In this document: piece after piece, positions 5,281-62,834 of the stretch | Layout: every line of letters starts with the position of its first letter | How positions within the stretch are numbered: the stretch's first letter is position 1 | From: Gekko japonicus | Lineage: Eukaryota | Length of the DNA stretch: 64,000 nt | Direction: 5' to 3' | NCBI RefSeq assembly: GCF_001447785.1 | Contig: NW_015171594.1 | Coordinates: 22,877 to 86,876 of the forward strand | Position numbers and translations under genes: made by a program | Notes under the pieces: model-generated | The model's input: the letters and a program-made list of their open reading frames with translations, nothing else | Database searches by the model: none | What the model was told of the DNA's origin: nothing

Positions 5281-5289
5281 GTCTTCCAG

Positions 5290-35267: not shown

Positions 35268-35399
35268 CAGTATCATAATGTCCCTGTATAAATCGATGCT
35301 GCTACCACATTTGGAATACTGTGTGCAGTTCTGGTCACCACACCTTAAAAAGGATATTATCGCTTTGGAAAAAGTGCAGAAAAGGGCAACTCGATTGAT
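35268..35399 (+). mobile_element. CR1 ORF2 C-terminal fragment running into the gap
   Basis: LYKSMLLPHLEYCVQFWSPHLKKDIIALEKVQKRATRL. Confidence 0.9.
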
Positions 35400-35999
35400 N
35401 NNNNNNNNNNNNNNNNNNNNNNNNNNNNNNNNNNNNNNNNNNNNNNNNNNNNNNNNNNNNNNNNNNNNNNNNNNNNNNNNNNNNNNNNNNNNNNNNNNNN
35501 NNNNNNNNNNNNNNNNNNNNNNNNNNNNNNNNNNNNNNNNNNNNNNNNNNNNNNNNNNNNNNNNNNNNNNNNNNNNNNNNNNNNNNNNNNNNNNNNNNNN
35601 NNNNNNNNNNNNNNNNNNNNNNNNNNNNNNNNNNNNNNNNNNNNNNNNNNNNNNNNNNNNNNNNNNNNNNNNNNNNNNNNNNNNNNNNNNNNNNNNNNNN
35701 NNNNNNNNNNNNNNNNNNNNNNNNNNNNNNNNNNNNNNNNNNNNNNNNNNNNNNNNNNNNNNNNNNNNNNNNNNNNNNNNNNNNNNNNNNNNNNNNNNNN
35801 NNNNNNNNNNNNNNNNNNNNNNNNNNNNNNNNNNNNNNNNNNNNNNNNNNNNNNNNNNNNNNNNNNNNNNNNNNNNNNNNNNNNNNNNNNTAGCATTATA
35901 CCCCAATGAGGCCCCTGTCCTCCCCAGGCTCCGTCCCCAAATCTCCAGGAGTTTCTCAACCTGTATCTGGAAACCCTACCGCCGCCGCCCCATATCCCA

Positions 36000-36760
36000 T
36001 CCCCTGCCGGTGGCCATGGAGGACATGGCAACCCTCTCTGCAGCAGATCAGAAGCGAAGAAGGTGGCGCTTTTCAGAGCACAAATGAAGATGTCGGATGG
36101 CACGCAAAGAGAACTTGTCGCAGGCGGACTGCGGACCGGACAAAACGCAGAAAGCGGTCCCCCCCCACCCCGAGTAGAGTACAGTCTCCCTGTTCTTCCG
36201 GTGCCGGAGCCACTTCCGGGGCACAGCCCCAGCTGCTTATTGGCTCTCCCTTCCTCCGTCGGGCTCCGCCCCCCACCAGCCCACAGACCGGAGCAACCAA
36301 CGAGACTGCGCCGAGCCGCTCCGCGGGTGACTCGCTCGCTCGCGTTGTCTTCCCTGCGGGAAGTTGCCAGTGGCTAAGGCAAGGACCTCGGGAGCGCGCG
36401 CGCCTCCTTTCCCTCCCGGTCGCCTTGGAAACAGAGCAACCGGCCGGCCTGGTTGAGCGCGTTGGGAGGGGGTGAGTGTGGCCGGGGCCCCTCAGTCGCG
36501 TCGCCCCCCCCCTCTCCAGCCAGATCTCGGGCCCCGGGTCCCCGACGACTTTGGTGGCGGGTGGTGTGGAGTCCGTCTGTGTCGTGTGAATGCGCGGCCT
36601 GGCTCTTCAGGGTCGCAGGGGGGAAAGAGGGGGGGCTGTCCTCCTCGCCCTTCAAAACTGTCACATCGGCTGGGGGGGGGGGGGGAAAGCGACTCCTTTC
36701 CTTCCGTCGTGAGAAGCCCTCCGCTCCTGTGCAGCTGGGTCTTTCATGAGCGAGTTCGGA
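36000..36760 (+). promoter_or_regulatory. STRADA: CpG-island promoter and non-coding exon 1 of STRADA
   Basis: High GC and CpG; ETS-type cttccgg twice at 36195-36220; reverse CCAAT (attgg) ~36239; GC box ~36265; donor GG|gtgagt at 36471/36472. Confidence 0.8.
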
Positions 36761-38281
36761 TCCGTTCTGTATTTTACTGATGGGATAACTTTTTTTTTTA
36801 AATCCAGCCTCGCTGCAAAGAGTCTAGGTTGTCTCCTTTCTTTGACCTTCACCAGCCCCCTGTGAGGTGGGAAAGGCTGAGAGAGAGAGTGATTGAGGGC
36901 CCTCACCCGTTGAACTTAAGGGGACTTGACCCCCAGTCTGTCTCCTTGAGGGGCTGAAGTTACTCTTTCAAGGGCACAGTTACTAGCTGGCTTTGGCTAC
37001 ATACACTCTGAATGTGGCTGGGCCCTAGATTGCTTTATTTCTATATTTCTTAAATCTATATATTTCTATATTTTTTAAATGTGGCTGTGCCCTAGATTTC
37101 TATGGGGTGTGTGGGGGGGGGGAGATATTGTGGGTGGCTGCTAGGTTCAGTTGCTACTGCTTTTGGGCCGGCCTTTGTTGCACACCAGGGCTAGGCCAAG
37201 TTTCACAGTGGTGGCTGCAACTGCTGGGCCTGTTTCTTTCTCTCTTTCCCATCCTCCACCATCAGGAGATATTACAATAGATTGGGAGGGGGGGGGTGTC
37301 CAGGCCTATTTACACTTTACAGAAACCAAGGCTTTGCAATATTGTTGTAGATACATAAGAACCACTGAGAGTTGGCATTCTTTTCATTAAGCTGCAGGTA
37401 TGGTTTCTGTTATTTTGTGGAGTTTTAATCCCTTGATGCTTGTTTGCTTTTAAAGATTTTTCTGTGAGCCTGGGACTTTAGGTTTGTAGAAAAATCCTTC
37501 CATTTGTTTCTAGCTCCATTTTGCGGATCTGTTGAGCATTTCCTTTGTAGCACACTTTAAGAATAGTTATATAATGATTAATGTTTTATTTCCAGTTTTG
37601 GACATCAAGAGATTTTTTCAGCATACATTGTTACATTCATAACATGTAGAACTGTCGTACTAACTCTGTTGCTCTCAGAGAGCGATACTGGCAAATATTA
37701 TCAACAAAATAAGCTACATTGACTTCCATCCCTGACCTGAATTCTGTGCTTCTGGGTGGTTCAGAGATTTTCCTCTTCTAGTAGCAGCTGTTTCAAGCTG
37801 TGAACCAACCACAAGGCCTGCTGGGGAGAGGTCTTGCCTGCTTTTCTAAAACATGGGGCAGGCACCATATTGGGGAATGGTACTTAGAAGAGTCATAGGT
37901 GGCACATCAAAAAAAGCCACTTGTGGCTCTGATATAGAGTATATACAGATGCATCCTCCTTCCCTCCCAATGACTAGTAAAATGAATAACTAGAAACTGA
38001 AATGTAGCTTGTATGAGAGTGAGCTTTATGATTGAAGACTCATTTGAACCTGGTACTCTAATGTTGGTCCAGTATGCAGTGCTGGCTTCTTTTTCATGAT
38101 TGACTAGCAAATGTAGCTGGTATCATGCTTTATCAATTGTCATCATTTTCCTATGGTTGTAAGAACAAAGTAGAAGCATCAGATTTGATTTCAGTTTTTT
38201 GTAATTCTGTTTTTGTTTCTGTCATCAGGATTATTTTAAACATTTCATACCTGTGGACTAGAATCATCAAGTCTGGATTCC

Positions 38282-38317
38282 ATGTCTTTTCTTGTAAGTA
38301 AACCAGAACAAATTAGG
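38282..38317 (+). CDS. STRADA: STRADA coding exon 1 ([12 protein letters not shown]); exon begins at 38229
   Basis: Acceptor catcag ending 38228; donor gtgagt 38318; internal gtaagt at 38294. Confidence 0.92.
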
Positions 38318-41300
38318 GTGAGTGTCCAACACTTTCAGGAATTATTAATGAGCACTGTGTTTTTCCTTTCCAGGTTGGTGCCTTGATCAGAGCCTTACCA
38401 TCCTAAACAGAGTTACACCCTTCTAAGCCCATTGACTTCAACTCTACTTAGGATGGCACTGTCAGTAAGGAGCTATCTCAAACATGACTGCAATATTAAG
38501 CATACTTACCAGGAAGCAAATACGTTTGGGATCAGGTTGCAGCCAGTAAGCTTATTTAGATCGAAACTTTGAGCATGGGACAGATCTTTTCACATGGGAC
38601 AGTTCCAGTGAGATGACTCCTATTGCCACCTAGACAGTGGCATTTGTGAATGTCCCTTGTGGATGTGAAATGCCATGTTTTTTAAACATCCATATTTTTG
38701 TTTTGATTTATTGTGTATACTTTGACTACCAGGACAGATTAGGAATTGGAGGGCTGTTCATGTCATTTGCCTTCTGTAAAGTCAATGGTCTGTTTGGTGC
38801 TCACAACTATTGGGCAGGACTTGGCCAACTGAAAGAGAAGGCAGGTCACCAGCTTTTTTTTCTGTGATTGAGAGAAAGAAACATGCTGGCAGGTTTGAAA
38901 AATCCATAAACACCTGCCCTTCATCCAAAGAGCTCAGGGTGACCACTCCTCCTCTGTTAGACCTTCATAACAGCCCTGTAAGATACGTTAGGCTGTGATT
39001 GTGTGACTGGCCCAAGATCACACAGTAAGCTTTCATGACAGAGTGGGGATTTAAACCTGGATCTCCCAGATCCTAACTGGACACTCCAGCCATCACACTA
39101 TGCTGGCTGTTTACTAAACATCTCTTTAAGTAGCAATAATATTTATATTTTCTGTCATCTTTGCTTTGAAAAATAAGTTTAAAGTCTTTATTTTATTTGC
39201 TCACAACAATAACACTGTGGAGTAGGTATCTTCATTTACAGATGGGAAACAGGCTGTTAATAGTTTGCCCAAGTTCTTTCAGTCCATTATTTAGTTTTAT
39301 TTATTGAAAATAAGTATATATTCTGTCCTTTAGTCTAAAGGCTTTTGAAGTGGTTTACAGAACTAGAATAAATGTTAAGACTCCATCAAAAAGTCACTTC
39401 AAGACCAGTCTAAACCAGAAGTTATACTAAAAACAAGACCTCACACTACAGCACTACAAAATTTAAGCAGATTGAGAAGAGAGTTACCTGAAACCATTCT
39501 ACTACAGGCAATAGGATCATCAGTAAATAAAGCCAAGGTAGCAAACGGTAACTAATCCCACCATTTAAGAAAAGGCCCAGGTGAAAAAAATGTCTTTACC
39601 TGACACCAAACCATACCTAGTCCAGTGCATTCTACAGCTGAGGAGCTATGACAGAAAAGGTTCCTCTTCTTAGTAACAGACTGGGTTGTTCCTTTTTCAG
39701 ATGGAAAATGATACAGAGCCTGTGACAGATGTCTTCATTAATGGGCAGGGACTTTTAGAAGGTGGCAGTCTTAGGCACCATGATCCTAACCCATTCAAGG
39801 ATTTAAAGGTCAAAACCTGCATCTTGAATTGAGCCCAGAAGCAAATTGGCAGCCAGTGCAGTTATCTCAGGACAGGTGTAATATGTTCTGTATAAGAGAT
39901 GCCTATACAGCATTCTTCTTTAGCTTCTGAATTGTCTTCAAGGCATTGATAACATTATAACTCATGTCTTCCAGGCCTAAATCCAGTTTTCTTCCAACTT
40001 AAAGCATTTTTTTCCAGTAAACTAACTGCTTTATTCTTCTTAGTCCCATCTACCTGAATTAATACTTGCGAGAGTGGGAGCTTCAGTACTAGTAGTGCAG
40101 CCTGAATATGATCAGTCCATGGCATTGATAACATTATAACTCATGTCTTCCAGGCCTAAATCCAGTTCTCTTCCTCACCAACTTAAAGCATTTTTTTCAG
40201 TATACTAACTGCTTTATTGTTCTTAGTCCATTTACCTAACTTAATACTTGCGAGAGTGGGAGCTTCAGTAGGAGAAATGAATGCTTTCTCTTGTGGTGAA
40301 CGTTATGTCTCAAAATACTGTAGCCCTAGTCCAGTTATCTCTAGCTGTGATAAAATCCCATTGAAACTAGGGGCCAAACCAGAGGTTGGCATAGCGTGAC
40401 TTTTGGCCCCAGACGGACACCTTTGTCGACCTATCTGTTCCACTCACAAAGCTGTGCGGGTGTTTTTAATCATTAAGAGGTTTGTAGGCAAATGCTATTA
40501 ATCCTCCTTTGTCCATTGCGTTACATCCCTGTGCTCTGCCATTCCAGGCTCAGCTTCTGATTTTGGGGGCATCCTGGGGGGAAATGCCTGAAGTCAGGGA
40601 AGGGGACTTCAGGGCAGCAGTGAGCTCTTTTTGATATAAACGCTAGAATTCCCCCCATGTACTGTGGACAGGGTGACAAGTGTGACTGCGCATGTCACAA
40701 GTACCGTAGTTTGGCCCTAACTTAAGCCTTACATGTTTCACTGTGATTTGACTGAACTGGCTTCAGCTGCTTTGGGTTTGCTTGCTAAAGGGGAAGCTAA
40801 TGTAAAGCAGATGTTCAAGTCTTAGTGTATACCAGTGAAGAAGAATGTAGAGGCTTCACCCTTGGGCATTGCTAATACAAAGCCAGGCTGTTGGATGTTG
40901 CTGTTGAGGCAGAAATGTGCAAATTGTTTTTCTTCACTCTATTATGGCTTTTAAGTCAATAAGTCACATAGGTTTCTTTCTGTGGTAAAATAAAATTCTG
41001 TCATCTTCTGTTAGGTCTCACTTCTTTGGGGTTTCTTTTCTAGCGGTGGGTGTCGGAGAAGTTCATTGTTGAGGGCCTGAGGGAGCTGGAACTGCTAGGA
41101 GGTAAGTGCAAGGAATAACATAAGTAAAAGGTAAAGGTTCCCTTGCTCGAAAGCCAGTCGAGTCCGACTCTAGGGTTGCGGTGCTCATCTCTGTTTCAAA
41201 GCTGAAGAGCCAGCACTGTCCGAAGACGTTTCTGTGGTCATGTGGCCGGCATGACTGAACACCAAGGCGCACAGAACGCTGTTACCTTCCCACCGAAGTG

Positions 41301-44300
41301 GTACCTATTTATTTACTTGCAATTTCTTGCTTTCGAACTGCTAGGTTGGCAGGAGCTGGAACTAGAGACGGGAGCTCACTCCGTCATGCGGCAACTTGGG
41401 TCTCGAACTGCTGAACTACTGACCTTCCACAGCCTGCAGTTCAGCGTCTTAACCACTTGAGCCACCACATAAGTACAAGGGGTTAATATAATGCTGTTCC
41501 GCATGAACCCTCTTGTTAGATTGGGGGGGGGCAGTCTTTGTGAGCAGTGCTTAGTGTATGGTCTCATCAGCTTATAAATTAAAAATCCAAGTCGGTAAAT
41601 GCACCTATCCACTGTTTGTGTTATAGTTTGCCTTGCACCTGAGGGTCTTACATATGTTTAACAATGTCTTTTTGTATAATGATTCTTGAGAACCGTTTCT
41701 TCTAATTAAGAATCTCTTATCAATAACCCATGGGATGGAATGGTTTGTTTATTAGTTGATAGGGGTATGTGACCAGATATGTAACTTTCTTTGTTGCTGC
41801 TAAGAAAGTTAGGGAAACATATTTAGGAAAGAGAGCTGTCAGTTACAAAGGTGATTTTTGTTGATTTAAATCAGTGATACTCAGTGGCTCAAGGACTACT
41901 GTGTGGATCTTTGAGATGCCACCTGTCTCTCTCAACCTCACTCTCTTGCCTGACCTGCTGTGTCTCATGCTGAGGAGACAGCAGGAAGCCCACAAGGAAA
42001 GTGCTTCCCCTCACGTCANNNNNNNNNNAGCAGTAGTGAGAAGAGACAACCCTACCTGCACAGATGTAGTCTGGTAATTAAAAATTTTATAGTCACATAT
42101 ATAATATTAATACTGATGTTTTCTAATGTACGTAGCAGTATGGTGCACAGCACAGGGCATACAGTAGCCACGTGGTTCTTTCAGCTGTCAGTAATGATGG
42201 GATGTGGCTGTTTGCAAGCCACAGAGTGAGTACCACTGATTTAAGTTACAGGCTTTAAAACATATGCAGAGAGTTGAGCCATTCATTTCTTTACTGCAGA
42301 GCAGCCTCCAGGTGACTCACGGAGAAAAGTAAGTGACCTTGTGTAGATCGCGGTGTGGCCCATTGCATGGGTATCTCCTATTCCCTGTTGGCATTCAGCC
42401 CTCCCTTGCTTGTACGTTTAATGTGTTCACTTTTATATGCATGGGAACAAGGTTTTTCTTAGGAAAGCGGCTATTGATGTGTGGCATGAATATTTTATTC
42501 CCAGTTTTGGATTTTCAGATGGCTGTTCCCGCCAGTAGTCCACAGTACTGTTTCTGTGACCGTATGATTGATCTCTTTATTATTTTGAATTGATAAAATG
42601 CTTCCTCAGACAGGGAGATTTAAAAAAAAATGAGTTGGCTTGTCAGCTGCTGAAAAGTCAAAGCAAAACCTACCCTGTTCTTTCTGCATTCAAAATTGAA
42701 TCTAAGGGAGTTAATTTTGGCACTTCATAATTCCCTGATACCTTTCCACGGAAGGGCTAGAGCTGCAAGAGTCCCAGCTGCCTAGCCAGTTTTCTGACCC
42801 TTGAGACACCTACCTGTTTGGCACTCCCGCTAAGCATGCCCCTTGCTGGTGTTGCTGTGTGTGAAGTACTGCTGTGTTTCCCCCTTTGTGACTGGTGTGT
42901 TTTGAGATTTTGCTGCCTGTGCAAGCTGGCCAGGTGTCACTGCTGCAGGCCTGAAATGCCAGCTCTGCTTGGCTTTGCGTTCCATGATAGCTGTGGCCTG
43001 TGGTCCAGAGTTATCAGAAGCCACTTCCTCTTTCTACCATACCCCATCCTTTTGGAGGCACAACAACTGCAGTGAGCTACATTGTGTGCCTTGTGCAGTT
43101 CTGGAACTATTGAATGAACTACAGAGTTAACAGTAGAAAAAGGAATTGCTCTAGAATCAAAGTAAGCCCTCTTGCTGACCTTTGAGTATCTTTTCATGAT
43201 GCCACACACAGTGCTTCCCATGTCTGTGTTCTTTTGTGCTCTTTTCTACATCTTTCATTCCCCTGGTTTCTTGCCCTCCATCCCATATACAGCTGATCAT
43301 TTCCAGCATAAGCTATTGTCTCTAAACCAGATGAAAGCAAATAGGCTCAGAGTTTAGCTAGCTTGTTACACCTGGCATAACATCCTGAACTTGCATTGTA
43401 CCTCCTGCCAGCAGAAGAAGAGGACTGGAGTGTAAGAACATGTGGATGTATGGAGGCCAACATGTAAATGAGCCTTAAAATACTGCCAGTTAGCAACTGT
43501 CATTGTTCCAAAGTTCTACTTTTCTGTTATATATTCAATTTGTACCCCGCCCTCCCCGCAAGCAGTTATCATTTCCCTCCAACATTGGACATTCTTCACA
43601 GTTTATTTTTTATTATTTTAACTCCACAAAGAACACTTAAACTTTACAAGCTGAAGTAAAAAACCATGTGCGTGGGTGTGTGGGTGTGTTTGATAGGCAT
43701 GCAAAGGAAATCATGCTGCAAATTAGATAAGTGTTGTGTGAATGGGAGCAGTTGTGGGAGCCATGCAACTCCCCTACACCTTGAAGAACTGGGCAAATAT
43801 AAACTTCTGGCACCAGCCCTTCTGCGGACCAGAAGGCTCTGGCACAGTCTCAAGAGGACTTAATGGAGGAATGGAAGGTGTCCAGAAAGGCCATGTGAAG
43901 GAACAATACCATACAAGACACTTCATGGAGGAAGAGACCCCTGGCTGAAGGACTCCTCTGTGTCCTAAAGAGAGATGAATGCCTGTTAGAAAGGAAGAAC
44001 TCTAAAAAGGGACAGACATGTCTCCTTACACCAAAATCAAAGCAAGTATCAATATGGGAGGAGGTGTTATTGTCAGGGGTCCAAAACAGAAGGCAGCCAG
44101 CAACCCCTGAAGATGTGACACAGAGATCAGAACATGGATGAGCCCACCTCATCCTGTATTTCCATTGATTTTCTGGTGTTCCAAGGCGAGATCTTTCTTG
44201 TTCCTAGTCCTTTTACCAGAAATAATGGAAATTAAACATGTCACTTCTGTAGAGCTGAAATAAATTGGAAATTTAAAAACAAATGAAAACACCCTCCCAT

Positions 44301-47300
44301 TCAGATTTGGAAACTACAGAGAATTCCATACCATAGAATCCAAATTTCAAAATGGAGTTTGTCATGCTAATTTCTACTTTGAAATTTAGAAACATACCAC
44401 ATTTGTAATGGATTTGCAGTTTTGTTCTGTTTTTTAATAGGGATTGCAAAAAAGAATTCTAGGTTGTCAGTAGAGGGGTAGCAAAGGATACAGTAGAAAG
44501 TCAGTTAATAGAATAGTAGGTATTTTTGGATATTACCAGTGCAGAGTGACTCCAGTCTAAGCCCTGGACTGGAATAACATTATCAGATTGCATTGCAAGT
44601 AAACAAATGCTCTTTGTTTATAAAACACAGTTCAGCAGCATCCCGGAAGCTTGTCGTCCTGGCAATGACCTTTTAAGGAAAGGCTTGCTTCACTGTACCT
44701 TTAATGGTATCATTCTTATTAAAATATTATACATTGTTTTTCCTCTTGGCTCAAGGTGGCATAATTTCTAGGCCTATAGCTGATTTCATTCTCAGCCCAT
44801 TGCTGTTTTGTGCCTCAAAAAACTGTTCTAAACCCAATGGTCAGGGAGTTTCAGTGATGTTCAGTCTGATCATATGCATATTTACTCAGAGGTAAGCCCC
44901 ACTGGGTTTAATTGGACTTACTGCCAACCATCTCCTCAAGATTGCAGCCTTGAATTTATGAAATTCCTTTTTACTAGCCGTATAAAGAAAAATCAAGTGT
45001 ACACTGTAAATGCATTCATTGTAACTTCAGACCATTGGTCCATCCAGTCCAGCATTATCTACTGTGGCAAGCATTGCCCTTGATAGTGTAAGCTACGGAT
45101 AGTTGCCCGCCCTACTGTCAGAGATCTTTCTGCCTGGACAAGCCTTGAGAATCTTCTGCAAGCAAGGCAGGTACTCTAGCGTATGCTATGGCTCCTCTTC
45201 CTGGAGAAACTATGCTTGAGAAAGTGGACTGTACTCTGTATTCTTGTCACAAGAAAGTGTTAATCTTTAAGGTTCAATATAATACTTTATTCTTGGGAAG
45301 TTTTTTGTACTTCCCTTTTGTACTTTTGTACTAAACTCTTCACTTGTACTCTTCACTTTTGTACTAAATTTTTGTGGACAGGAATTTAAGCTAAACAATG
45401 GGCTAAATGTGTTTATAAAAGAGAAATGGAAGCTCACCCCAGAGGGGATGGGCTGTGGTTGAGTGGTAGAGCATCTGCTTGGCATGCAGAAGGTCCCAGG
45501 TTCAATTCGTGGGATCTCCAGGTAAAAGACCAGGGAGTAGGTGATATGAAAGACTTCTGCCTGAAACCCTGGAGACCCTCTGTCAGTCTGAGTAGACAGT
45601 ACTGATTGTGATGGACCAGCAGTCTGATTCAGTATAAGGCAGCTTCATCTGTTGTTCATGTGTTATTCAGCTTCCATTAAAGATGTGCTCCACCCTCGCT
45701 AACCACCTTGGTAATACATTCTGCTAGAATCACATGCAGAGATAAGATGGGAGATGTTAAAGTTGCTATTTTGCATGTGTTGCAATCAGGGCCTACAGTA
45801 GACTCTCTTCCATAGAGAAATTTCAAAGGGGAAGCTATCTCAGGTGAGCAAAAGCTCCTTTGAGCAACCATATCCTGCCATTTTTAGCATATGTAAGATT
45901 TTCCTATATAAAAAGTTGTTGTTTTTTTTACCTAGCTGCTTCTCTGTGTTTGAGTTCTTTCTTATTTACTTTTCTTTTGTACTTTTCCAGACTAATGAAG
46001 CAAGCATTGAGTCAATAGCGCATTTGCCCAAAAGGGACATTATGAGCAGTTATTTGCCAGATAGCAGTCTGTATGAGCTACTGAATGTAATAGGTAAGTT
46101 TTCAGTCCAAGAAAAGCACTTCCACAGAATACTGATCTACTGATTTTATGAACTGAAGAATGCTGTTCTTTTACAGTAGTTAAAGAAGTAAATTCATAGC
46201 TTGGGGAGCTGGGTCTCCTATGTCTGTTGTTGGATAAGCAGGTGGCGACACTGGTTAGGAACATCTTTCACCAACTTTGGCTGGTGATCCAGATGCAGCC
46301 TTTCGTGGTCAAAAACAAAAAACCACTTGCCACTGTGGTGTGTGCCCCAGTAACATCTAGATAATTAGACTACTGCAATGAGCTTGATGTAGGGATGCCC
46401 TTCAAGAGTGTCCAGAAACTATGATTGGTACAGAAGGCTGAAACCCAAATGCTGAATGGATTAGGTCATGGGAATCCTGTCTCTCCTGGGTTGTTCTACC
46501 TACACAGGCTCCCAATTGGTCAGGGATGGTCTTCATGATTCTGGGTCCTGGGCAAAAGTCAAAGATGAGCCCCTATACCTTCCCAGCCTCAATCCATAGC
46601 TCTCATCATTTCAGAAAACTATGGGAACTGTGATGTTCATTATGTTTATAATGTATACATGCAGCATTCTACTGCTTAGTTTAATGCTAGACCCAGTGAA
46701 CCCCACTGGAATACTGTAACTCCTTTTTTCACTGTTACCCAAATGTGGGAAATTAACCAAAGATCTGGCTTTACAAGAATGATACTCAATGACTTGGGAG
46801 CCTCATGTGGCTCTTTGAGATGCCATCTGTGGCACTTCTGAGCACTGTATGCCAATGTGGCACTCAGTCCAGGTTTCACAAAGGTGGATAAGGCCACTGC
46901 CGAGTAGGGCGTGTGGTTGGCAGGTAGTTCACATGTTGAAACAGTTACTGCTGCAGAGGCTGCAGGATTGGTAAACTGTCAGCCTCCCTGAATTGCAGGA
47001 CTTCTGCCGAGGATGTGCGTAAAGGGCTTATCCTCTCTAATTCTCTCCCTTCTCCATAGTTTATGCAGTCACCCCAGTACCCAGGCAGCTGTGAGAAGGA
47101 GAGCAAGCTGACCACAGAGAAGACAGAGTAAAACCACCCACACAACAGCCACACAGGAAAAGAGCAAGCTGGCCGCAGTGGATGGGTGGGGTGGTTTTAC
47201 TCCCCATTTCCATGTTCAACTAACTGTCCTCTGGTCACCTTGGCAATCTCATTCTTTCACCTGAGATGCTGGGAAGAAATCAAGAAGGCTGAAAGAGAAG

Positions 47301-50300: not shown

Positions 50301-53300
50301 CATTTCTGCCCAATGCCAGCCAAAATACACTGGTGCCTTTGATGTTAGTTTGTGCCATACAACATCTGAACAACAACAGCAACAAAATGATCCTCTCCAT
50401 TTTCTTTTCGAATTCATGCATGTTACAGTGATTAATCTTTGAGACTGAGTGACCTGTCAGTTTCGGGCTCCTGTTAGTTCTAGCTGATATGAAGGAATCC
50501 TAGTCACAGCCACCACCTGACAGTCCAGCAGCAAAGCCCAGGTTGAAGAGCATCCCTAGCCTACAAGTCTTTTCTTGTAAGGAGGGCCTGGGTCCCATCT
50601 ACAGTAGGTGATACCACCAAAACAGATCACATGGACAGCCCATCATGTTTTGGTCTTAGCTGGATCTACTTATGGCTGTACCTCATAGCCATATTTAAGT
50701 TCTGTTTTGAAGCAGTTTTAATATAGTAATGCGTTTTGATGAGATTTCTTCAACTTTTACCTTTCTTGAGCCTTCAGTGTTAGGGCAGGCTGAAAGTCCA
50801 AATAAAAGTATAAGAGGGATTCCCTGTAGTTTTTCCCTAGGCAAAGAAAGGGTACCTTTCAGGGCAGAGGAAGTTTAATGTGTAATACTGACGTATACTT
50901 CCAGCTTACACAGATCACCACTAGTGATGGCCAACAAATCTGTTAGATGTTCTTTTGCCAGTGTTATCAGTATTCTATTAATTGTTGTACTCAACTTGTT
51001 TGCTCTTAGCACCTTTCCTGCCACTTGCAAAACATACGATCAAAATTAATGTGACATTATTTTTGCAGTTAGTTACATACGTTGATTCATTTATTTCTGA
51101 TCTGTTTTATACTCTCAGATAGACCTGCCCCATATGAATAAATAAAATGATATGCAAAATAATTAGGTGCTTTCATGCTCAACCTTGCAACAGCCCTTGA
51201 TTAATTAAAGCAATACGGGTGTGCTTGTTGGCTAGTCAGTTTTCTCAGTGTATTTCCTGTATTAATTTGGCTCTCTTAGACATTAGCTGAGAATCTGTGG
51301 TTGTATTATTGTTTTTTTTTTTTTTTAGGATGAGCTTCATGTCTCAAAGTTCTTCAGTAACCCCAACCTTGTGCCATATAAAGCAGCCTTCATAGTCAGC
51401 AATGAACTTTGGGTTGTGACCTCTTTCATGGCTTATGGTAGGTACAGCCTGGGTTTTTCCTCAGTTCTCTTCTGTTCTCAGTCTCTTCTATACTCTGGAA
51501 TATCTGGCATAGTCTCATTCCAAGAAAAAATGGTTTTAACCTTGGGGGCAGAGTGCAGTTCTGTGTGGGGTATGAAATTCTAGGTAGGGCTCTCCAGTTT
51601 CTGCTTCCTCGCAGGTATTTCTGAGGTTAAAAATACCTCTTATAAAGGAGAATATACTCTAAGGCTTTTGTGAATTTTAATCCTGTCTGAGTACAAAGAC
51701 GTCAGACGTTCTGGGCTCTTATGGTAAATCAGAGGGAATATTTTAGTCCCTATCCTGGAGCTTTCCTGAAGGAGGAAGTTGCGTCCTTGCCAAGGGACAG
51801 AACACATGGTAACTTGTACAAATAAAGAGAAACAACTCTTAAAGACAACTGTTTTGGCTTTCTTGCACTACCTTTTCTCTTTGCAGGTTCTGCTAAAGAT
51901 TTAATCTGTACCCATTTTATGGATGGGATGAGTGAACTAGCTATGGCTTATATACTGCAAGGTGTATTGAAGGCTCTTGATTATATCCACCATATGGGAT
52001 ATGTTCACAGGTAAGCAAGGTTGTAGCACTTTAAGCATGAAAAAAGCAAACTTCAGCTGTTCTGAAATCAGTTTCATTATTTTGGCTTCCTGGGGAAAAA
52101 AGCCCCGGGAACTGTAGTCTTTCTGAGCGTGCTTTGTTAGAAAGTTCCTAAGATTCATATGTTGTCCCAAACATAGATATAATTTGTGAAGCAAAAGTTT
52201 GAGTTGAGGGCAGTTTGTGCCTAAGTCTTGATAAGATAATGCCAATATGTGAATCAGTGGAGCAAGCATTCTGTAGCGTGGACTACCACTTGATAGTAAT
52301 AATTAAGCATTATTACTACATTGAAACTGAATTAGGGTCTTCATATCTGCCTTGATGGTGTATTTTTCTCACCTGATCTTGAAAAATAGCTACACAGTAT
52401 CACCTCCTCATACAGGCAGTCCCTGCCCATCTGGCCTTGCCCAATCATGGAGGAGGACAGGGGGGATGGATCAGGAAGCTCAAGTAGAGAACATGCAGCA
52501 GGTCCAGCCAGAGCAGTGTCCATACGGACTTACATTAATGTCAGCTGCTCTGTGCTCTGCAAACCTCTCCACCTAGCTGGTGGAGCTTTGTTTTCCACTA
52601 GCCATGGCGGGGGGTGGGGCAAAAAAGAAAAAGGGGGGGGGGCTTACTATGAGGCCAAGAGAAAATTTTGCAACTGGCTGGAGAGGTGTGCAGGAGTCTA
52701 AGGCAGTTGATACCAGTGTAAGCCTCTAAGGAGGCTACTTTCACCAGAGGTCCTGCTCCTGAAGCACACACAGCAGATCATTCCAGAGCAGCTTCTCTAC
52801 TAACTTAAATTGCTGTCAGCTGCCTTGGGCTCCTGCACTGCTCCAGACTTTCTTTTTTTTTTTAATGTCATGTCCGGTGCCCTGTACTGTTCTCTAGAAG
52901 CACCAGAGTAACAGGCTGTTTGTTGTCTGATGTCTCTAAGGCAGGCTGTATTGGACCAGTGTTCTTCTGAACTGCCTGATCCCTGCAGTGCTCTTGACAG
53001 GAGTTGCCTTGTAGGCCATCTAAGTGCCCTGGATGGGCACTAGGTTTGACATCTCTGTTCTAGTCTCTTGGTAGAACTTCAGTTTCCTGGGCTCCTTGGC
53101 TGAGAGCCATACCACTAAAATGGGATTGAAGCCGGCTCAGATTCACAGTGTAGCCGCAGAACACAATTCATGGCATCAGATACTTTGCAATGTTGTGGCA
53201 TTGGAAGCCTGGGCCAGCAGAGGTAGATCTGAAGGGCACTGATGACATCTTGTTCCCACACCTTGCAGGAGAGCATTACCCACACTCCAAAGGCTGCCAG

Positions 53301-56300
53301 ATTATGTTTGCAGGTAGGAGCCAAATCAGCCTAGCGCAGAACGTGACATCTTGAACTAGACTGGGCCATGAGCAACACGTTTGAGAGCCTTTGGCCTTTT
53401 GCTTGGATTTCAGGTTAAGTTGAGGAATGAGAAATTAAATCTTCATGGGCTGAAGTTGCTGTACCTTCTACACGTGTTAGCGTTGACTCTCCTGAACTGC
53501 CAGATTATTTGTTGCTCTGCCCTAGGACTCAGTATATGGTCTAGAGTTTTGGAGACTTGGGAGGGGGGTTTGTGGCTGCTTTCTCTCTGTCCTCTTTGCA
53601 TGCAGGAGTGTGAAGGCCAGTCATGTCCTGATTTCTGCAGATGGAAAGGTGTACCTCTCTGGCCTGCGCAGTAATCTAAGCATGATCAGACATGGTCAGC
53701 GCCTCAAAGTAGTTCATGATTTCCCCAAGTTCAGCATCAAGGTCTTACCATGGCTGAGCCCAGAGGTCTTGCAGCAGGTATGTTGATTCTCGCTTGGTCT
53801 TACTGTCTTAGCTTCAGTTTGGCCAGGACCAAGTCTTGCAGATGTATTTAACACACATCTTTTCTCCCCAGCGGTGACCCAAAATAGCTCACAACAGCAT
53901 TCATCCCTCCTCCATTATCCGTGAGCTTAACCTACTTCACTGGGTGGCTGTTTTAAGTGAACAAAGTGACTGGCCCAAGATCACCCAGTGAACTTCCGTG
54001 GCAAAGTAGGCACGTGAAACTGGGTCTCCCAGATCCTAGTCCAACACTCTAACAACCGGTACACCACACTGGCTCTTCAAATATTTTTCACGGATAAAAT
54101 TAACTGTATTGCATAGAGCCCCCCATACTGCTTCAACCAGAAAATTTTACTTATCGAAAGACACCGCTAAACCTTTGCACCAGGAAGCCTGAACTGAGCT
54201 GCTGCTGCTTCCTTCTCCTCCTTGAACTCCTTTTTATTCATTAGGTTTTCTTCCTTTGACTGTTGCCAAGATTGCAATAAAAGCCTCTGTAAATACATAT
54301 CAATTGTCTTTGTGAGCCACCATGATCAATTATTTAACTCTTTCTTTGTTCATTTTTCCTTGGTTTAAGGAGGGTCCCAAAATATCCCAACATATTTTTT
54401 TTCATGTTTATGGTTTTAGAATCTTCAGGGCTATGATGCAAAATCTGATATCTACAGTGTGGGAATAACGGCCTGTGAGCTGGCGAATGGCCATGTCCCC
54501 TTCAAGGATATGCCTGTGACTCAGGTATGCTATTCTTTTACTACTTTTCCAACTACACTGTATAGAGGAGCAAGGAAGCTACATGTATTGTGGCATTAAT
54601 TTGTTGGCTTTGGAATGACCCTGCATTGTCCCAAGACTATAGAGCCACTGGATTACATGAAGTAAACTAAAGATGGGGGCATGAGCTTAAATTGCTTGTT
54701 AAAACAGATATGCCTTTCCTTCTTGAACTTTAGATGCTTTTAGAGAAGCTAAACGGCACAGTCCCTTGCCTTCTGGACACCACCACCATCCCTCCGGAGG
54801 AGCTGATGACAAAACCATTACGATCAGGAGCCAGCACGGGGTTCGGGGAAAATATGGCAGCCAGCAATGCCAAAGCTTCCAATGGCGAAGCAGCACCACA
54901 TCCATATCTTCGTACCTTCTCACCCAGCTTTCATCACTTTGTAGAACAATGCCTTCATAGGAACCCAGAACTAAGGTACCACAAGAGCAGATTGGAGGAG
55001 GTTTGAAGTGTTACAGCCCCTAGGGAGATGGAGGAGAGGCTGCTGCCTGTGGTACATTCCAGCTTTTTCTGCTACCATGATCCTAGAAATTTGCTCCTTC
55101 TGGAGGAAGGCTCTCCCACCAAAGCGTGCTTTCAAGATCCTCTTGAAAGAGGCAAGTTTCTAGGCCCTTAGTAGCAAATGATAAACGTGTATATTTTGAA
55201 ACAGCTACAGCATAAGCCTGTATAGTGGATCCTTATAGCTCTGGCATTAAAAGGGGGGGGGGGGAATGCTTTGTTAAAAATATCTGTCCTCAAATTTTTA
55301 AAAAAACCCAATACATTTCCTGTCAAAACATGCAGTTTTGCAGATTTGTGTTTCAGTTGCTGTTTCTGGACTTAGAATGGTCTGACATGAATCATGATAA
55401 ATAAGAAGGCGACCCCTCAAAACATCCTACAACAACAAAGTGCAGCGGCACAAGGGGGGGGGGGCGTGCCTATCCACTAGCAATGAAAAATATATGACAC
55501 ATGGTGGGGAACTCCCAAGTATGGACATGTTTCCTATAATCCCTCCAATTCTTGTTTATTTAGCTTATGTATAGCCTGCCTTTCTCACTGGGACTCAAGG
55601 TGAACGATAGAGAACAGAAGGAGAAAAAAATGTATTCATACAGTATAGAACATTTTAGATTCAATGCATTAGGACTAGGCGTACACCATCGAATGACTGT
55701 GCAAGCAATAATATGAACATACAATGTGAGCAATACAGTGGACAGTGCAAGTGAACAATGTAGTAGCACTAGGAACACAACACTAATTGACCGTAGGACT
55801 AGGACTAGGAATACAAAATAAAATGACAATGTGAACAGCAGATTGCCAGGCTGGGATTACAAGGCAATGCATTACCCATTTCCACATGAAGGTGCCCTTC
55901 TGGACCATTCTGTCCCACTACACTTCTAGCTCCATTACAAGAATGCCCTCTTGAACATTGCTGCGTTGGAACATTTTCGGAATGATAGTATCTCTTTCTT
56001 TCCATAGCAGTAGTTGAGTTTGGTAGATCTGAGGCTTGGAAGTCCTGAGGAGGAAGAAACTTTTTTTGTTGCTTTCCATCTTGTTCCCTTGCATATTGAC
56101 GCATGACATCTTTGTTGTGTTTCCCTTGCACAGACCAAGCGCAAGTACCCTGCTCAACCATTCTTTTTTCAAACAGGTAAGCAACCTGCCTCCCCAGTAA
56201 CGTCTTCTCTTGTTTCAGCACACTTGAGGGATATTGGCCGGGGGGGGGGGGGGGGGTGGCACTGATGCTGAAGCAAAACAAGGAGTGCTTCATGTCCTCC

Positions 56301-56973
56301 TTATCTCTTGTCATGCCAATGTCATTTCTGGAGTAAAGCACTCAAGCACTGACCAGATCCCGCGCAAAAGAGTCAGGTTTTGTTTCCATATTCTATGGAT
56401 AAAAACATGCAATTCTGACTATATAGCTAAAAGAGCCTTACTGTTAGGCACTAATCTAGAGTAAGTAACTATCTATTTGGTAAAGTAATTCACCTGACCA
56501 GCTGAGGCTATTCTGTGATACAATTGTGCAAGGCAGGTGGGCAGAAATTACTTCTTCTGTGTGTCAGCTTTTTAAATCCTCTTTCAAGGCTAAGTTTGAA
56601 AATGACAAATGCTGGGCTGTGTTTATGCTGGCCTGATCCTCCCCCTCCTCCCCCCCTCCTGTCAGTTCAAAACATAACATTTCTCTCAGTCTCCCTAGGT
56701 GGAGGAATAATTAGCAGATGTGAGATCAAAGTGATGTGAATTCCAGCTCACTTTTTCTCACCAGCAGAATGCCTTGCATCATGTATAGTAGATTTTTTAA
56801 AATTCTTCCCTCTCCTCCAGGTCAAACGCCGTCCATCTGAAGCGCTCCCTGAACTGTTGTACCCTGTCACACCAATGACTTGTTTTGAAGGCCTGCAAGT
56901 GCAAGATCCAAACAGTATTTGTGGAGTGGAATCTAGTTTGGAGCAGCTCACACTAGATGACTGGGAATTCTAG
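38282..56973 (+). CDS. STRADA: STE20-related kinase adaptor alpha (pseudokinase); 12 coding exons, 1296 nt, 431 aa
   Basis: join(38282-38317,41044-41101,42300-42328,45991-46093,48777-48898,51329-51437,51887-52010,53606-53777,54420-54524,54734-54975,56134-56176,56821-56973); all introns GT-AG with consistent phases; [24 protein letters not shown]...HRSVKASH...SGLRS...DDWEF. Confidence 0.96.
41044..41101 (+). CDS. STRADA: STRADA coding exon 2 ([19 protein letters not shown])
   Basis: ttttctag acceptor, gtaagt donor. Confidence 0.93.
41127..41466 (-). mobile_element. Sauria SINE, full length, 9-bp TSD
   Basis: (ACCTTT)n tail seen as aaaggtaaagg; gtcgagtccgactctaggg; tRNA-like head; TSD acataagta at 41118-41126 and 41467-41475. 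Confidence 0.92.
42300..42328 (+). CDS. STRADA: STRADA coding exon 3 ([10 protein letters not shown])
   Basis: ttactgcag acceptor, gtaagt donor. Confidence 0.92.
45444..45665 (+). mobile_element. tRNA-derived SINE (Squam2-like)
   Basis: gggctgtggttgagtggtagagcatctgc...ggttcaatt...gatggaccagcagtctgattcagtataaggcagcttc; a 5' piece also at ~58355-58475. Confidence 0.8.
45991..46093 (+). CDS. STRADA: STRADA coding exon 4 ([10 protein letters not shown]...YELLNVI)
   Basis: ttttccag acceptor, gtaagt donor. Confidence 0.95.
46200..46520 (+). mobile_element. L2 LINE C-terminal fragment, intronic
   Basis: Degenerate LDYCN.L.VG.P.KSVQKL motif. Confidence 0.6.
48777..48898 (+). CDS. STRADA: STRADA coding exon 5 ([30 protein letters not shown]...FLQ)
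   Basis: ttccag acceptor, gtagag donor. Confidence 0.96.
51329..51437 (+). CDS. STRADA: STRADA coding exon 6 ([18 protein letters not shown]...SFMAY)
   Basis: Poly-T acceptor, gtaggt donor. Confidence 0.96.
51887..52010 (+). CDS. STRADA: STRADA coding exon 7 ([14 protein letters not shown]...YVHR)
   Basis: ttgcag acceptor, gtaagc donor. Confidence 0.96.
53606..53777 (+). CDS. STRADA: STRADA coding exon 8 ([10 protein letters not shown]...SGLRS...WLSPEVLQQ)
   Basis: tgcag acceptor, gtatgt donor. Confidence 0.96.
54420..54524 (+). CDS. STRADA: STRADA coding exon 9 ([15 protein letters not shown]...MPVTQ)
   Basis: ttttag acceptor, gtatgc donor. Confidence 0.96.
54734..54975 (+). CDS. STRADA: STRADA coding exon 10 ([15 protein letters not shown]...RNPELR)
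   Basis: ctttag acceptor, gtacca donor; matches ORF 54734..55006. Confidence 0.95.
56134..56176 (+). CDS. STRADA: STRADA coding exon 11 ([14 protein letters not shown])
   Basis: gcacag acceptor, gtaagc donor. Confidence 0.95.
56821..56973 (+). CDS. STRADA: STRADA last coding exon ([13 protein letters not shown]...DDWEF*)
   Basis: ctccag acceptor; C-terminal WEF MO25-binding motif; TAG at 56971-56973. Confidence 0.96.
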
Positions 56974-58173: not shown

Positions 58174-58179
58174 AATAAA
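58174..58179 (+). terminator. STRADA: Probable STRADA polyadenylation signal (3' UTR ~1.2 kb)
   Basis: First AATAAA noticed after the stop; T/GT-rich tract follows at ~58212-58240. Confidence 0.6.
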
Positions 58180-58638
58180 ATTATTTTGCACTCTTCCAAC
58201 CTTCCATGCAACTTCTTGTTTTGTCTTGCAGTGAGTGTTGACTTGCTGAAAGGATTGTCCACTTGTAAGTGAAAGCACAATTCCTTGGTAAGCTATAAGG
58301 AAATAGAGTTTCATACTTTAATTGAGCTCTTTGGTTCTGGCTCAGTTAGGAAAGGGAGAGTGTCTGTGGCTGAGTGGTAGAGCATCCGCTCAGCAAGTGT
58401 AGGATCCCAGGTTCAGTCCCTGGCATCTTCATATAAAAGGATCAGGTGATAGCTGATGTGAAACATCTCCAGCTAGCCCCTGACTGTGGGCTTCCTCTTC
58501 CAGGCTGTCTTAATGAGCAGTCCAATGTAGAACTGTTAGAGAATGAACTTGATATTTGCTTTATGGACTATTTATTGCTACACACAATGGACTGTGCACA
58601 CACACGTAGGGTCAGAAAGCTGTACACTTTAAGTCACC

Positions 58639-59599
58639 TGTTGTGATGCCACACATAGAAGGTGCCTGCACATACCTTACTTGTAAGTAAGGTTTCAGCT
58701 ACACAGTTGCCAAGCCTGGTGAAGAAGCACACACCTCCATTATTGTGAGCAATGGAACAACAATCTCGAGAAGAGACAGCCCCCATTGCAGAACTGTTTG
58801 TAGTCACGTACTACCCATTGCCTGCTTTGTTCCTGCATTGGTATTTCCTGCCATATGGACATTTGATTATCAATAGAATGGCCAGCTTCATCAGCACAAC
58901 AATGGAGCATTCTGATGCCTAGGTTTTCACATCTGTCCAGATGCCATACTTCGAGTAAGGTTTTAGGTTACAATATTGCCCATCCCCTCAGGTAATCTCC
59001 CCTTCCCATAGGCAACCAATAGGATTGTTTTTGGGACGAACTAACAGGTAGGTGGGTCAAGAGGCTGGCACAGTTACCACCCATCTCTTGGACCCCTTAT
59101 AAAAGGGAAGGACCATTCACCTGGCCCTTCCTAGCTAGCAATCCCTGCATCAGCCCCTATCTGCTTTTACTCCCCTTGAGTCCCACTTACTATCCCCAAC
59201 CCTTGCCTCTACTTTGATCTCTTGATCTGCAGTCAAGAGAACCCCACACAGTCCGGCTAGTTCTGGTAGTGTGGATCCCTTTATTTTCCATTTCTTCCCA
59301 TCCATTCTTCATTGGAACAACCAAGCTGCAAGACAGATAAGTATCGCCCACCATCACTCGTACTGGCTAATGCGAAAGTACTTATTTCTTACTGTAAATC
59401 TTAGGAACTTGATTGAATGTGTGAGTGCATCAGTATTGTTTGTATGAGATATATATTTTAAGTAAAATACATCTATTTTAACCACAACAGCCTCAAATCC
59501 TTTACTGGTGACCCTTGGTGGGAACAGGACCTTGGTATAAACTGGCAAGAACCCATTTATAAATTGCCAATTGCTGTAAATAAAGCAATTCGGCTAACA
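58639..59599 (+). mobile_element. Probable solo LTR
   Basis: tgttg...taaca ends; CCAAT ~59016, TATAAAA ~59098 and AGTAAA ~59461 in LTR order; TSD unclear. Confidence 0.45.
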
Positions 59600-61902
59600 G
59601 AACACCTTACAATAATTCATAACATTTTTCCAATGATAACCCACAAATCCAAGTTTACATTGCATGGTGACCCAACCAGGGCTGGCCCAAGATTTTTCGT
59701 GCTATGGTGTTAAAACCCATCTAGCCCAGCATTTTATTTTTTTTTATTTAGAGTGGCTAACCAGATGTTTTGGAGAAACCAACGAACTTTCTACAGAGAA
59801 TGCAGCTGTGCCCAAACACATGACATTCTGAAGTTTACTGCCTTTGCATATGGAGGTTACATTCCAGCCTTTCATCACTCTCTTCTTCTCCATTACTCCC
59901 TCTAAGCCCCCCATAAGATTCTTAGAAATTTGCATCAAGGGACATTTTATTTGAATTTTTATCACTTGACAACTAATATCAACTAATTGATGACATTGAA
60001 GATACTGTTTCCAGGGTCAAGGCTTGCTTTCCAAAATACAAATGCCTTGCCTCAAATTAAGCACTTAAGTTGTTTCTTCTAGGAGCTACTTCATACATGA
60101 TCTTCCTACAGGGACAGTCTACATTAAAAAATGTTTTTACTGAGTGCAGTTGGTTATATTCAACAGCATGCATTCTTTACAAAAAAGGAGAATGACAAGG
60201 CCATAAAACAGTAGAGATCCATGATGTAGCTGCTGCCATATTTTGTGCTCATTCTATACAACCTAGCTCTGGACGTATTGATAAAAATGAAACAACAATT
60301 GAATTTTGTCCAATCAATGTTTGAATTTTCTTTCTTTAATTTGATTACCATTTCACTGTCTTAAGCTTTCCTTTGACTAGATGGAGCAGCCATGCTGAAG
60401 ATCATGGAAAACACATTAATAAAAACATGTGGATGGGGGCTTTACTAAGATTGGGAAGAAATCACCTCAGCAGTCTTTGGGCCTGTGAAGGAAGGGACTT
60501 GCAAGCCCTGTTCCCTCAGATGGAAAACCTGTGGCCATTTCAAGTCTTTGCTCAGTGGCACTGTCACTTTCCCTCCCTCCTAGGAGACACCCGAATCCAA
60601 ACGGTATTGGTTGCTGCCACCAGCAAATCAGAGAGTATCTCCCTCAGGATATATTTGTACATCAAGCACTCTATTCCTAGGTTGCTTTGAGAGGCTCTGT
60701 CTAGTTGCCATGTCTCCTACTTCACTCCTACAAGCTACAATGGGGATGGTGTATCACACTTTTGAGCTGTTGTGCTCAAGGGATGGTGAACTTACCCATT
60801 GCTCTTCCCTGTTAGCAGTCTTGACAGCAGGACCAAATGGATATGGGATGCTGACAGAGTTCAGGCTTCAAGCATTCAATCAAGATACAAGAAAGTTTAA
60901 TTTTTAAGAAGTACACATGGGGTGATCAAGCACCAAGTTGGGCACGCATGCAAAGAAGAGTTAAAAACATGATCGTTCAATCTGTACTTGGTACTTATCT
61001 ATACAATTTTAATTAGGACAAGGTAGTATTTCTTGAAGTTTCAGTAGATAAAAGTCTACCATTACCTTAGTTCTCAGAACATGGACTTCTCCCCATTGTT
61101 CCGCATCATATATAAAATATGAAGTCCCTAGATAAAGATTTACTCCATGGCTTATGCACATCCATAAAGAAGATCAAGATGCAAGAGAGTGTCTTTCCCG
61201 TATCCTGGGAATTTATAATCTCTCCTTGGGAGCCCACAGAATGCTGCGTCATTATGGAATAATCTAAGCAATGTATGTTGGCACAATGGATAAAAGCATG
61301 TCCTTTGCAAAATTTTCTCCAATGCCACTAAATCTCACTTGGGGTTTGGCTCAAGCTGCACAATCTGATTTGGTTAGCCATTATTATCATGGAAACGGAT
61401 GGAGACTGCAAAGCAGACAGAGAGAGGTGGAAGGCTGGGTGGCCCCAGCCAAGACTGACTACAGCAGTAACCACTATTTTGTTTCAGCTGCTCTGTAGCT
61501 GTAACTGTACCTAGAAGGGGGGCAAACAAATAAAGAACTGGAGTTCTGTATTCAGTTATCAAAATAAATCATACTTATTACAAATCCTTATCTACAAGCA
61601 ATGTGGTAAAAAGCAATATTCAAATGTTTTAATACAGTCATTTAAAAAATAAATGAAAGAAAATATGGTGTTTTTTAGGATAGCAAAACTAGAGATTCAT
61701 TGTAGGTGATGCACCATGTAAAGAGAGCATAGGTGCTAAATTGGGTTAACATTATCTACCGATCATAGGCTGAAAAGCACCATAAGCAAAGTCTCAGTGT
61801 GACTGAGGCAGATAAGCACCATAAGCAAAGTCTCATTGTGACTGTGAGGCAAAGTCTGGTTGTCTCTTCAATACTGCATCTTTTGAGAGGTGCTCTTTGA
61901 GG

Positions 61903-62834
61903 TCACCACCGTGTTACATTCACACCTGTTCTCTTCCTCAGAGCCACTTGGATGTCTTTGTTTCTCAAGGTATAAATAATGGGATTCATGAGTGGTGGCA
62001 AAACTGCATAAAAACGGCAGCTAACAAGTCCATAGATGGAGATGACATCTCTTTTGGCCTCATGTAAGAAAACATGACAGTAAAAACAAACAGAGAAAAC
62101 ATTGTCAGGTGAGGGATGCAGGTGGAAAAAGCTTTATACTTCCCTTGGCCTGACTGGATTTTGAACACAGCAGAGAAGATGTAGCTGTAAGAAACCAAAA
62201 TGAACACAGAACAAACTGACCCTATAGTAAGAACACAGACAAAATTGAACATCTCATTGAACTTGGTATCTGTGCAAGATATCCTAAACAACTGACGGAT
62301 ATCACAGAAATATTGTTCAACAAGATTGGATGAGCAGAACTGTAGCCTAAAGGTGTTTAATGTTGTTATTGTCCCATTAATTAAACTGAAGACCAACGCA
62401 GCAGCTGCCATTTCAAAACAGGCATTCCAGTTCATGATCAGCGTGTACTGGAGAGGATGGCAGATTGCTACATAGCGGTCATAAGCCATGACAGCAAGCA
62501 GGGAAATTTCTGCAGTAGCACATGCAACAACCAGGTAAACTTGGCTGACACATCCTGCAAAAGAAATCCGATTGTCATTTATCAATGAAATGACCATGGA
62601 TTTGGGAACGGTGGCAGAGATGAAGCAGGCATCTACTGATGACAAAACAGCCAGGAAAAAGTACATGGGAGTGTGAAGGTGAGGAATCAGGGCCACGGAC
62701 ACAATGATGAGAAAATTTCCCATCAGAGTTGCCAAGTAGAGAGAGAGAAACACCATGAAATGTAAAATCTGTAGCTTTCGCATATCAGAGAATCTTAGAA
62801 GGAGGAATTCGGTCACAACTGTTTGGTTTACCAT
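61903..62834 (-). pseudogene. OR14-like olfactory receptor with a 1-nt frameshift in TM7 (or intact if a sequencing error)
   Basis: MVNQTVVTEFLLLRFSD...LHTPMYFF...MAYDRYVAIC...KAFSTCIPHL; after the T-run at 62014-62010 the shifted frame continues YAVLPPLMNPIIYTLRNKDIQVAL to TGA at 61905-61903; acceptor AG at 62855-62854. Confidence 0.9.

What the first reader, a model, noticed from the sequence alone, without database searches (positions are those of the whole stretch)
36000..62834. Intact intron-containing STRADA embedded in an OR14 olfactory receptor cluster
Seen: a complete 431-aa STRADA with its own CpG promoter has OR14-like genes on both sides, and no exons of other genes were recognised. 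The stretch from STRADA to the OR at 62.8 kb has no gap; the left junction crosses a 491-N gap. Recalled knowledge: in mammals and birds STRADA lies among MAP3K3, LIMD2, CCDC47 and DDX42, not ORs. Inference: the gene was moved or duplicated at DNA level (introns are kept, so it is not a retrocopy) into normally heterochromatic OR territory. It could be a second lineage-specific copy of the LKB1 activator.
Basis: partly seen in the sequence, partly recalled or inferred. Interest (0 to 1): 0.7.

Follow-up and report, generated by a model that had tools for sequence, protein, structure and literature searches.

The report
Gecko's sole STRADA among smell genes
This is the only copy found in this gecko genome of STRADA, a helper of the tumour-suppressor kinase LKB1; it is intact and spliced but sits among smell-receptor genes instead of its usual neighbours, likely because old chromosome rearrangements scattered that gene block, so it is a moved gene and not an extra copy.

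Summary
Observation confirmed; the 'second copy' idea is not supported. The window holds a complete STRADA: 12 GT-AG coding exons, 431 aa, identical to an annotated gecko protein. RNA reads splice from a non-coding first exon in a CpG island. Its 193-kb scaffold otherwise shows only OR14-like and V2R genes. Whole-genome searches find no second STRADA, only a STRADB-like locus, and the protein tree follows the species tree. STRADA is absent from its old site. The block that is contiguous in cattle and chicken is scattered in this genome: DCAF7 lies next to LIMD2, CCDC47 faces a class IIa HDAC, TACO1 sits among zinc-finger genes, RNF113A among TRIM/PRY-SPRY genes. Relatives of the left-flank receptor share a chromosome with STRADA in 8 of 10 other squamates, so the move was likely within one chromosome. 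The 491-N gap on the left was not bridged, and the age of the move is open. No paper on this arrangement was found. The scan noted a similar case before on other DNA (albumin pair in a lacertid OR cluster, unchecked), and beta-globin is the published precedent. Modest interest.

The parts
6284..7099 (+). OR14-like gene, 5' part lost in the 132-N gap
   Evidence: 89% to a named OR14-like protein
16636..17505 (-). OR, 5'-truncated (no open N-terminus); probable pseudogene
23675..24658 (-). OR without an ATG at the usual start and with a short deletion before TM6; probable pseudogene; nearest OR on the left, about 11.7 kb from exon 1
34842..35270 (.). 215-bp tandem duplicate (98%) next to the gap; may be an assembly overlap
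35263..36035 (.). repeat remnant, 491-N gap (35400-35890), repeat remnant: the unbridged left junction
   Evidence: no contig bridges it in 3 DNA runs
36050..36750 (+). CpG-island promoter with GC-box, CCAAT and ETS-like words (motif names recalled) and non-coding exon 1 ending at 36471
38229..38317 (+). exon 2, ATG at 38282
41044..41101 (+). exon 3
42300..42328 (+). exon 4 (29 nt; skipped in the joints shown)
45991..46093 (+). exon 5
48777..48898 (+). exon 6
51329..51437 (+). exon 7
51887..52010 (+). exon 8
53606..53777 (+). exon 9 (GLR motif)
54420..54524 (+). exon 10
54734..54975 (+). exon 11
56134..56176 (+). exon 12
56821..56973 (+). last coding exon, C-terminal WEF motif and stop; first AATAAA at 58174 (use not shown)
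   Evidence: loose read ends at 56178 run into this exon
60554..63596 (-). recently duplicated OR cassette (90-97% to the next two copies), starting 3.6 kb after the STRADA stop; its OR (61892-62834) has a frameshift near the 3' end

Best explanation
This is the gecko's single, intact, spliced STRADA orthologue, likely cut away from both old neighbours by several old rearrangements within one chromosome that left it, with its own CpG promoter, as an island in an OR14/V2R array. The protein is predicted to work as in mammals: a pseudokinase that binds ATP and MO25 and switches on LKB1. Shown: gene structure, splicing, single copy in this assembly, absence from the old site, scattering of the neighbours. 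Inferred: the mechanism (serial inversions or short translocations breaking in repeat-rich gene arrays, no net duplication), its age, and that the CpG island keeps the gene active among receptor genes.
For: Single copy: exon and full-length searches give only C11884 plus a 42-68% locus on C15664; the other 10 of 22 full-length matches are generic kinases at 23-32%; the 3' UTR is unique. Orthology: 35-row tree, geckos 100/100, squamates 100/100, C15664 outside all vertebrate STRADAs. Function residues kept: R100, E118, S195, K197, H200, GLR213-215, E105, N109, I138, Y185, WEF (against passages of PMC2686265). Spliced reads in 3 raw RNA runs of one study plus contigs of a second study. Old site empty: no STRADA hit in 297 kb downstream of CCDC47 nor on the whole 171-kb LIMD2 contig. 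Many breaks, not one: DCAF7 and LIMD2 are 16 kb apart in their old orientation with no TACO1 or MAP3K3 motif between; TACO1, RNF113A, CCDC47 and STRADA are on four other contigs. Same chromosome: left-OR relatives share contig length with STRADA in 8 of 10 squamates; a 91% orthologue of a right-side OR does so in Heteronotia; CCDC47 does so in Hemicordylus.
Against: No call shows gene order in another squamate; contig-length matches show only a shared chromosome, which would also hold if STRADA had not moved there. In Sphaerodactylus 0 of 19 and in Elgaria 0 of 1 listed OR relatives are on STRADA's chromosome. The left gap was not bridged. G000 is in 191,500 pieces, so some of the scattering could be assembly error, and a parent copy could hide in a gap (for example 5,110 N inside CCDC47). 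No breakpoint scar was found. MAP3K3 was placed only as one exon on a 336-bp contig.
Confidence: 0.6

Rival explanations
1. One DNA-level duplicative transposition put a copy of STRADA into the OR array and the parent copy was later lost, as proposed for amniote beta-globin.
For: ORs lie on both sides and the unit is about one gene long (36-60.5 kb) with promoter and 3' end. Neighbouring genes TACO1 and RNF113A also appear as single genes in foreign arrays. Precedent: PMC2529266 (passages).
Against: No parent remnant by tblastn or blastn near CCDC47 or LIMD2. CCDC47 and LIMD2 are not adjacent to each other either, so further breaks are needed anyway.
Confidence: 0.22
2. The arrangement is partly an assembly mis-join, most likely at the 491-N gap, so STRADA would border the OR array on one side only.
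For: The gap is flanked by repeats and by a 98% 215-bp duplicate; no contig in 3 DNA runs spans it; Sphaerodactylus OR relatives are on other chromosomes.
Against: The right junction is gapless and only 4% repeat, though it was not checked with DNA reads. OR relatives of both flanks map to STRADA's chromosome in Heteronotia. The old neighbours have other partners in gap-poor sequence.
Confidence: 0.12
3. This is a second, lineage-specific STRADA copy beside a conserved one at the LIMD2-CCDC47 site.
For: Unusual position; gecko stem branch is fairly long (0.087; 13 gecko-fixed changes); the assembly is fragmented.
Against: One hit in 4 of 4 genome searches; no second STRADA name for any squamate in the listed clusters; tree follows species; contig depth over unique STRADA parts (61-84) matches the OR side (62-70) in run X1, with the tool's caveat that depth is no copy number.
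Confidence: 0.03

Closest known systems
Vertebrate STRADA (STRAD-alpha; PDB 3GNI, 2WTK, 8VSU)
   Same: 431 aa, pseudokinase motifs, WEF tail, alternative use of 5' exons; already annotated as P0121
   Different: Neighbours are ORs and V2Rs, not LIMD2 and CCDC47; squamates carry L124F and N126S at the MO25 alphaE site, geckos also H127N
Amniote beta-globin cluster embedded in olfactory receptor genes (PMC2529266, passages)
   Same: Intron-containing non-OR gene with ORs on both sides after a DNA-level move
   Different: Beta-globin left a parent (omega) and then multiplied, and is tissue-specific; STRADA is single-copy with a CpG-island promoter; no CTCF consensus match found here
Rattlesnake Z-chromosome OR/V2R array with interspersed non-chemosensory genes (PMC12400810, Fig. 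1 legend only)
   Same: Mixed OR and V2R array with other genes inside, on a chromosome that includes the chicken-27 homologue (PMC4902969 passage; Z link recalled)
   Different: The legend names no genes; whether STRADA is one of them was not seen (supplement search negative)

Membership tests
STRADA (STRAD-alpha) orthologues | Pseudokinase substitutions: R100 for VAIK lysine, S195 in HRD, H200, GLR for DFG | tested here: met
STRADA (STRAD-alpha) orthologues | C-terminal WEF motif and MO25 contact residues E105, N109, N126, I138, Y185 | tested here: met
   WEF and 4 of 5 residues kept; N126 is S in all 21 squamate rows and in goat
STRADA (STRAD-alpha) orthologues | Groups with STRADA in species order, not with STRADB | tested here: met
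   the STRADB label of C15664 is recalled, and that row fills 31% of columns
STRADA (STRAD-alpha) orthologues | Binds MO25 and activates LKB1 | not testable with these tools
   inferred from conserved residues only
STRADA (STRAD-alpha) orthologues | Conserved position between LIMD2 and CCDC47 | tested here: not met
   position is not needed for orthology
Retrocopy | Loss of introns | tested here: not met
   11 coding-region introns plus a 5' intron
Lineage-specific duplicate | A second copy in the same genome | tested here: not met
Non-OR gene embedded in an OR array (beta-globin type) | OR genes on both sides in verified contiguous DNA | tested here: inconclusive
   right side gapless; left side crosses an unbridged 491-N gap
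Non-OR gene embedded in an OR array (beta-globin type) | Insulator (CTCF) borders | tested here: inconclusive
   0 matches to a recalled consensus at 1 mismatch, 0.71 expected by chance; binding untested
Non-OR gene embedded in an OR array (beta-globin type) | Surrounding heterochromatin | not testable with these tools
   only low RNA depth over the left OR in one run of unknown tissue

The most novel reading that the evidence does not exclude
In squamates the ancient DCAF7-to-DDX42 gene block was dissolved gene by gene, with three essential single-copy genes each ending up inside a different fast-evolving multigene array (STRADA in OR/V2R, RNF113A in TRIM/B30.2, TACO1 in zinc-finger genes). 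Such arrays would then act as acceptors of housekeeping genes, and STRADA would be a natural test of how a CpG-island gene stays active inside odorant-receptor chromatin without clear CTCF borders.
Probability: 0.3. Interest if true: 0.5.

Novelty: new member of a known kind. Interest (0 to 1): 0.25.

Why it matters
The gene and protein are ordinary and already annotated, so LKB1 biology gains little. The position matters for genome evolution: a gene order kept from mammals to birds is broken in this gecko, which misleads synteny-based orthology and may mark a rearrangement hotspot on the chicken-27 homologue. If the embedding is real and old, it gives a second amniote case, after beta-globin, of a non-receptor gene living inside an OR array, this time a broadly needed one.

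Tried and rejected
Retrocopy: rejected, introns present. Second copy: rejected by four genome searches and the tree. Parent remnant at the old site: none by tblastn or blastn; blastn gave only repeats. Bridging the gap with public DNA contigs: failed, contigs break at repeats; 0 of 24 listed pieces span it. No RNA holder was on record in the run search; raw RNA runs were laid instead. PB1-family search did not place MAP3K3; a second pattern hit only the MAP3K2-like contig. RefSeq accession order as a proxy for gene order: uninformative and uncontrolled (Heteronotia OR orthologue 68 numbers from STRADA; Hemicordylus CCDC47 3,152 away; other ORs 135-5,400 away). King cobra CCDC47 and STRADA on different scaffolds (683,758 and 54,649 bp): weak, positions unknown. 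Three of four right-side ORs were not in the protein collection. Supplement searches for STRADA and neighbours in 4 snake papers gave 0 hits, with some files not searched. CTCF scan negative. Breakpoint-scar search of the 3' flank found only repeats and the OR cassette. A whole-frame Pfam scan beside CCDC47 did not run; the neighbour was identified from long frames instead. No structure or complex prediction was run, as solved structures cover the protein.
Full report
Observation. The window is G000:C11884:22877-86876, on a 192,557-bp scaffold of a 2.49-Gb assembly in 191,500 pieces. Twelve coding exons from 38282 to 56973 give 431 aa with all 11 introns GT-AG. The protein is identical to the named gecko STRADA P0121, 93.5-98.1% to six other gecko proteins, and 80.5% to a primate one; it matches the solved human STRAD-alpha chains at E below 1e-205. 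A CpG island at 36050-36750 (GC 0.66, o/e 0.79) holds non-coding exon 1. N runs are 132, 491 and 10 bases.

Expression. Of 15 joints shown (7 more not shown), 7 are gene introns: exon 1-2, 2-3, 3-5, 5-6, 7-8, 10-11 and 11-12; loose ends at 56178 run into the last exon. They come from three raw RNA runs of one study and contigs of one more study, tissues unknown. The 3-5 joint skips the 29-nt exon 4; inclusion of exon 4 was not among the joints shown. Variable use of 5' exons is known for mouse STRADA (PMC4016016, passages).

Surroundings. Long-frame and motif scans of the whole scaffold show 4 ORs left of STRADA, 6 right of it, then V2R genes from 132 kb on. The four ORs in the window are all incomplete or broken. 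The right-hand OR belongs to a cassette duplicated at 90-97% identity that begins 3.6 kb after the STRADA stop, so receptor duplications reached the gene's edge without copying it. Small-exon genes could have been missed.

Copy number. Two exon searches, a full-length search and a 3'-UTR search of G000 give one STRADA. The only other close locus, C15664, is 42-68% identical, is further from the window's exon 9 (39 of 57) than shark STRADA is (45 of 57), and falls outside all vertebrate STRADAs in a 35-row tree; I call it STRADB from recall. The tree follows the species tree. The second-copy idea therefore fails for this assembly.

The old neighbourhood. Cattle keep DCAF7, TACO1, MAP3K3, LIMD2, STRADA, CCDC47, DDX42 in order (PMC7655849, passages). 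Chicken has DCAF7, MAP3K3, LIMD2, RNF113A, STRADA, CCDC47 and DDX42 within a 200-kb region of chromosome 27 (PMC4683778, passages). Six of the 120 listed STRADA hits are fused gene models with CCDC47 or LIM parts, from two birds and four mammals and no squamate. PMC6278350 (passages; figure not seen) treats strada as a conserved tetrapod neighbour of ace and puts the few failures down to assembly. In G000, CCDC47 is on C13984 with no STRADA or OR hit in 297 kb downstream, where a class IIa histone deacetylase lies instead (HDAC5 by recall). LIMD2 is on C5051, 16 kb from DCAF7, with no STRADA, TACO1 or MAP3K3 signal on the 171-kb contig. TACO1 is on C11820 among SCAN and C2H2 zinc-finger genes. 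RNF113A, with introns, is on C17328 among TRIM/PRY-SPRY genes and tRNAs. MAP3K3 was found only as one exon on a 336-bp contig. DDX42 was not located.

Other squamates. No tool gave gene order. Among the best 120 of 7,990 relatives of a left-flank OR, those on a contig of the same length as that species' STRADA were 34 of 36 in Paroedura, 11 of 11 in Eublepharis, 4 of 4 in Heteronotia, 2 of 2 in Hemicordylus, 2 of 2 in Rhineura and 1 of 1 in Zootoca, plus one each in two Podarcis species from the cluster look-up; against this, 0 of 19 in Sphaerodactylus and 0 of 1 in Elgaria. A right-side OR has a 91% orthologue on Heteronotia's STRADA chromosome, and Hemicordylus CCDC47 shares STRADA's chromosome. 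This argues against a join between chromosomes and for a move within one. It does not date the move. A rattlesnake Z-chromosome OR/V2R array with unnamed other genes inside is already figured (PMC12400810, legend and passages), and the chicken-27 homologue is described as a separate chromosome in a gecko and fused in Toxicofera (PMC4902969, passages). A gecko genome preprint counts 63 breakpoint regions against chicken and does not mention STRADA (10.1101/2023.04.01.535199, passages); its breakpoint tables were not seen and may bear on this locus.

Junctions. The left junction is a 491-N gap between repeat remnants, beside a 98% 215-bp duplicate; public DNA contigs did not bridge it. The right junction is gapless and 4% repeat but was not checked with DNA reads.

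Mechanism. Most likely (0.6), several old intrachromosomal breaks in repeat-rich arrays separated STRADA from both neighbours without net duplication; the gene survived because it moved whole with its promoter. A single duplicative transposition with loss of the parent, as proposed for beta-globin (PMC2529266, passages), is the main rival (0.22). Protein function is inferred to be unchanged, since the ATP- and MO25-binding residues named in PMC2686265 (passages) are kept except L124F and N126S, which are squamate-wide.

Novelty. A search for STRADA with 'olfactory receptor' and 'squamate' gave 0 papers. The 12 papers naming at least three block genes are not about squamate synteny by title, and searches (listings) gave nothing on this locus; subscription journals are not covered. 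The gene is annotated in public databases. The scan holds no earlier STRADA note but one similar unchecked case in a lacertid. Verdict: real, single-copy, relocated gene of a known kind; interest 0.25.

Noticed in passing
G000:C17328:210,000-220,000 (L102-L103): Intron-containing RNF113A, a chicken neighbour of STRADA, lies inside a TRIM/PRY-SPRY cluster with four tRNA genes nearby.
   Followed up: partly
G000:C11820:609,448-613,215 (L033-L035): TACO1 lies among SCAN and C2H2 zinc-finger genes, away from DCAF7.
   Followed up: partly
G000:C5051:79,000-126,000: DCAF7 and LIMD2 are direct neighbours in their old orientation; no KCNH6 or ACE motif was found in the 79 kb upstream.
   Followed up: partly
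window 51329-51437 (exon 7): Squamate STRADA has L124F and N126S at the MO25 alphaE contact site; geckos add H127N, A139V and D140S, among 13 gecko-fixed changes.
   Followed up: partly
window 55152: A GC-AG alternative donor extends exon 11 by 176 nt in reads of three RNA runs (6, 1 and 3 reads); the extension has an in-frame stop and would drop the WEF tail.
   Followed up: no
window 33964-34429: A 206-bp inverted repeat (95%) just left of the gap, MITE-like.
   Followed up: no
window 60554-63596: OR cassette tandemly duplicated at 90-97% identity; at least two of three copies look broken.
   Followed up: partly
window 30513-31154: The second CpG-rich stretch is a dispersed repeat, not a promoter.
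   Followed up: yes
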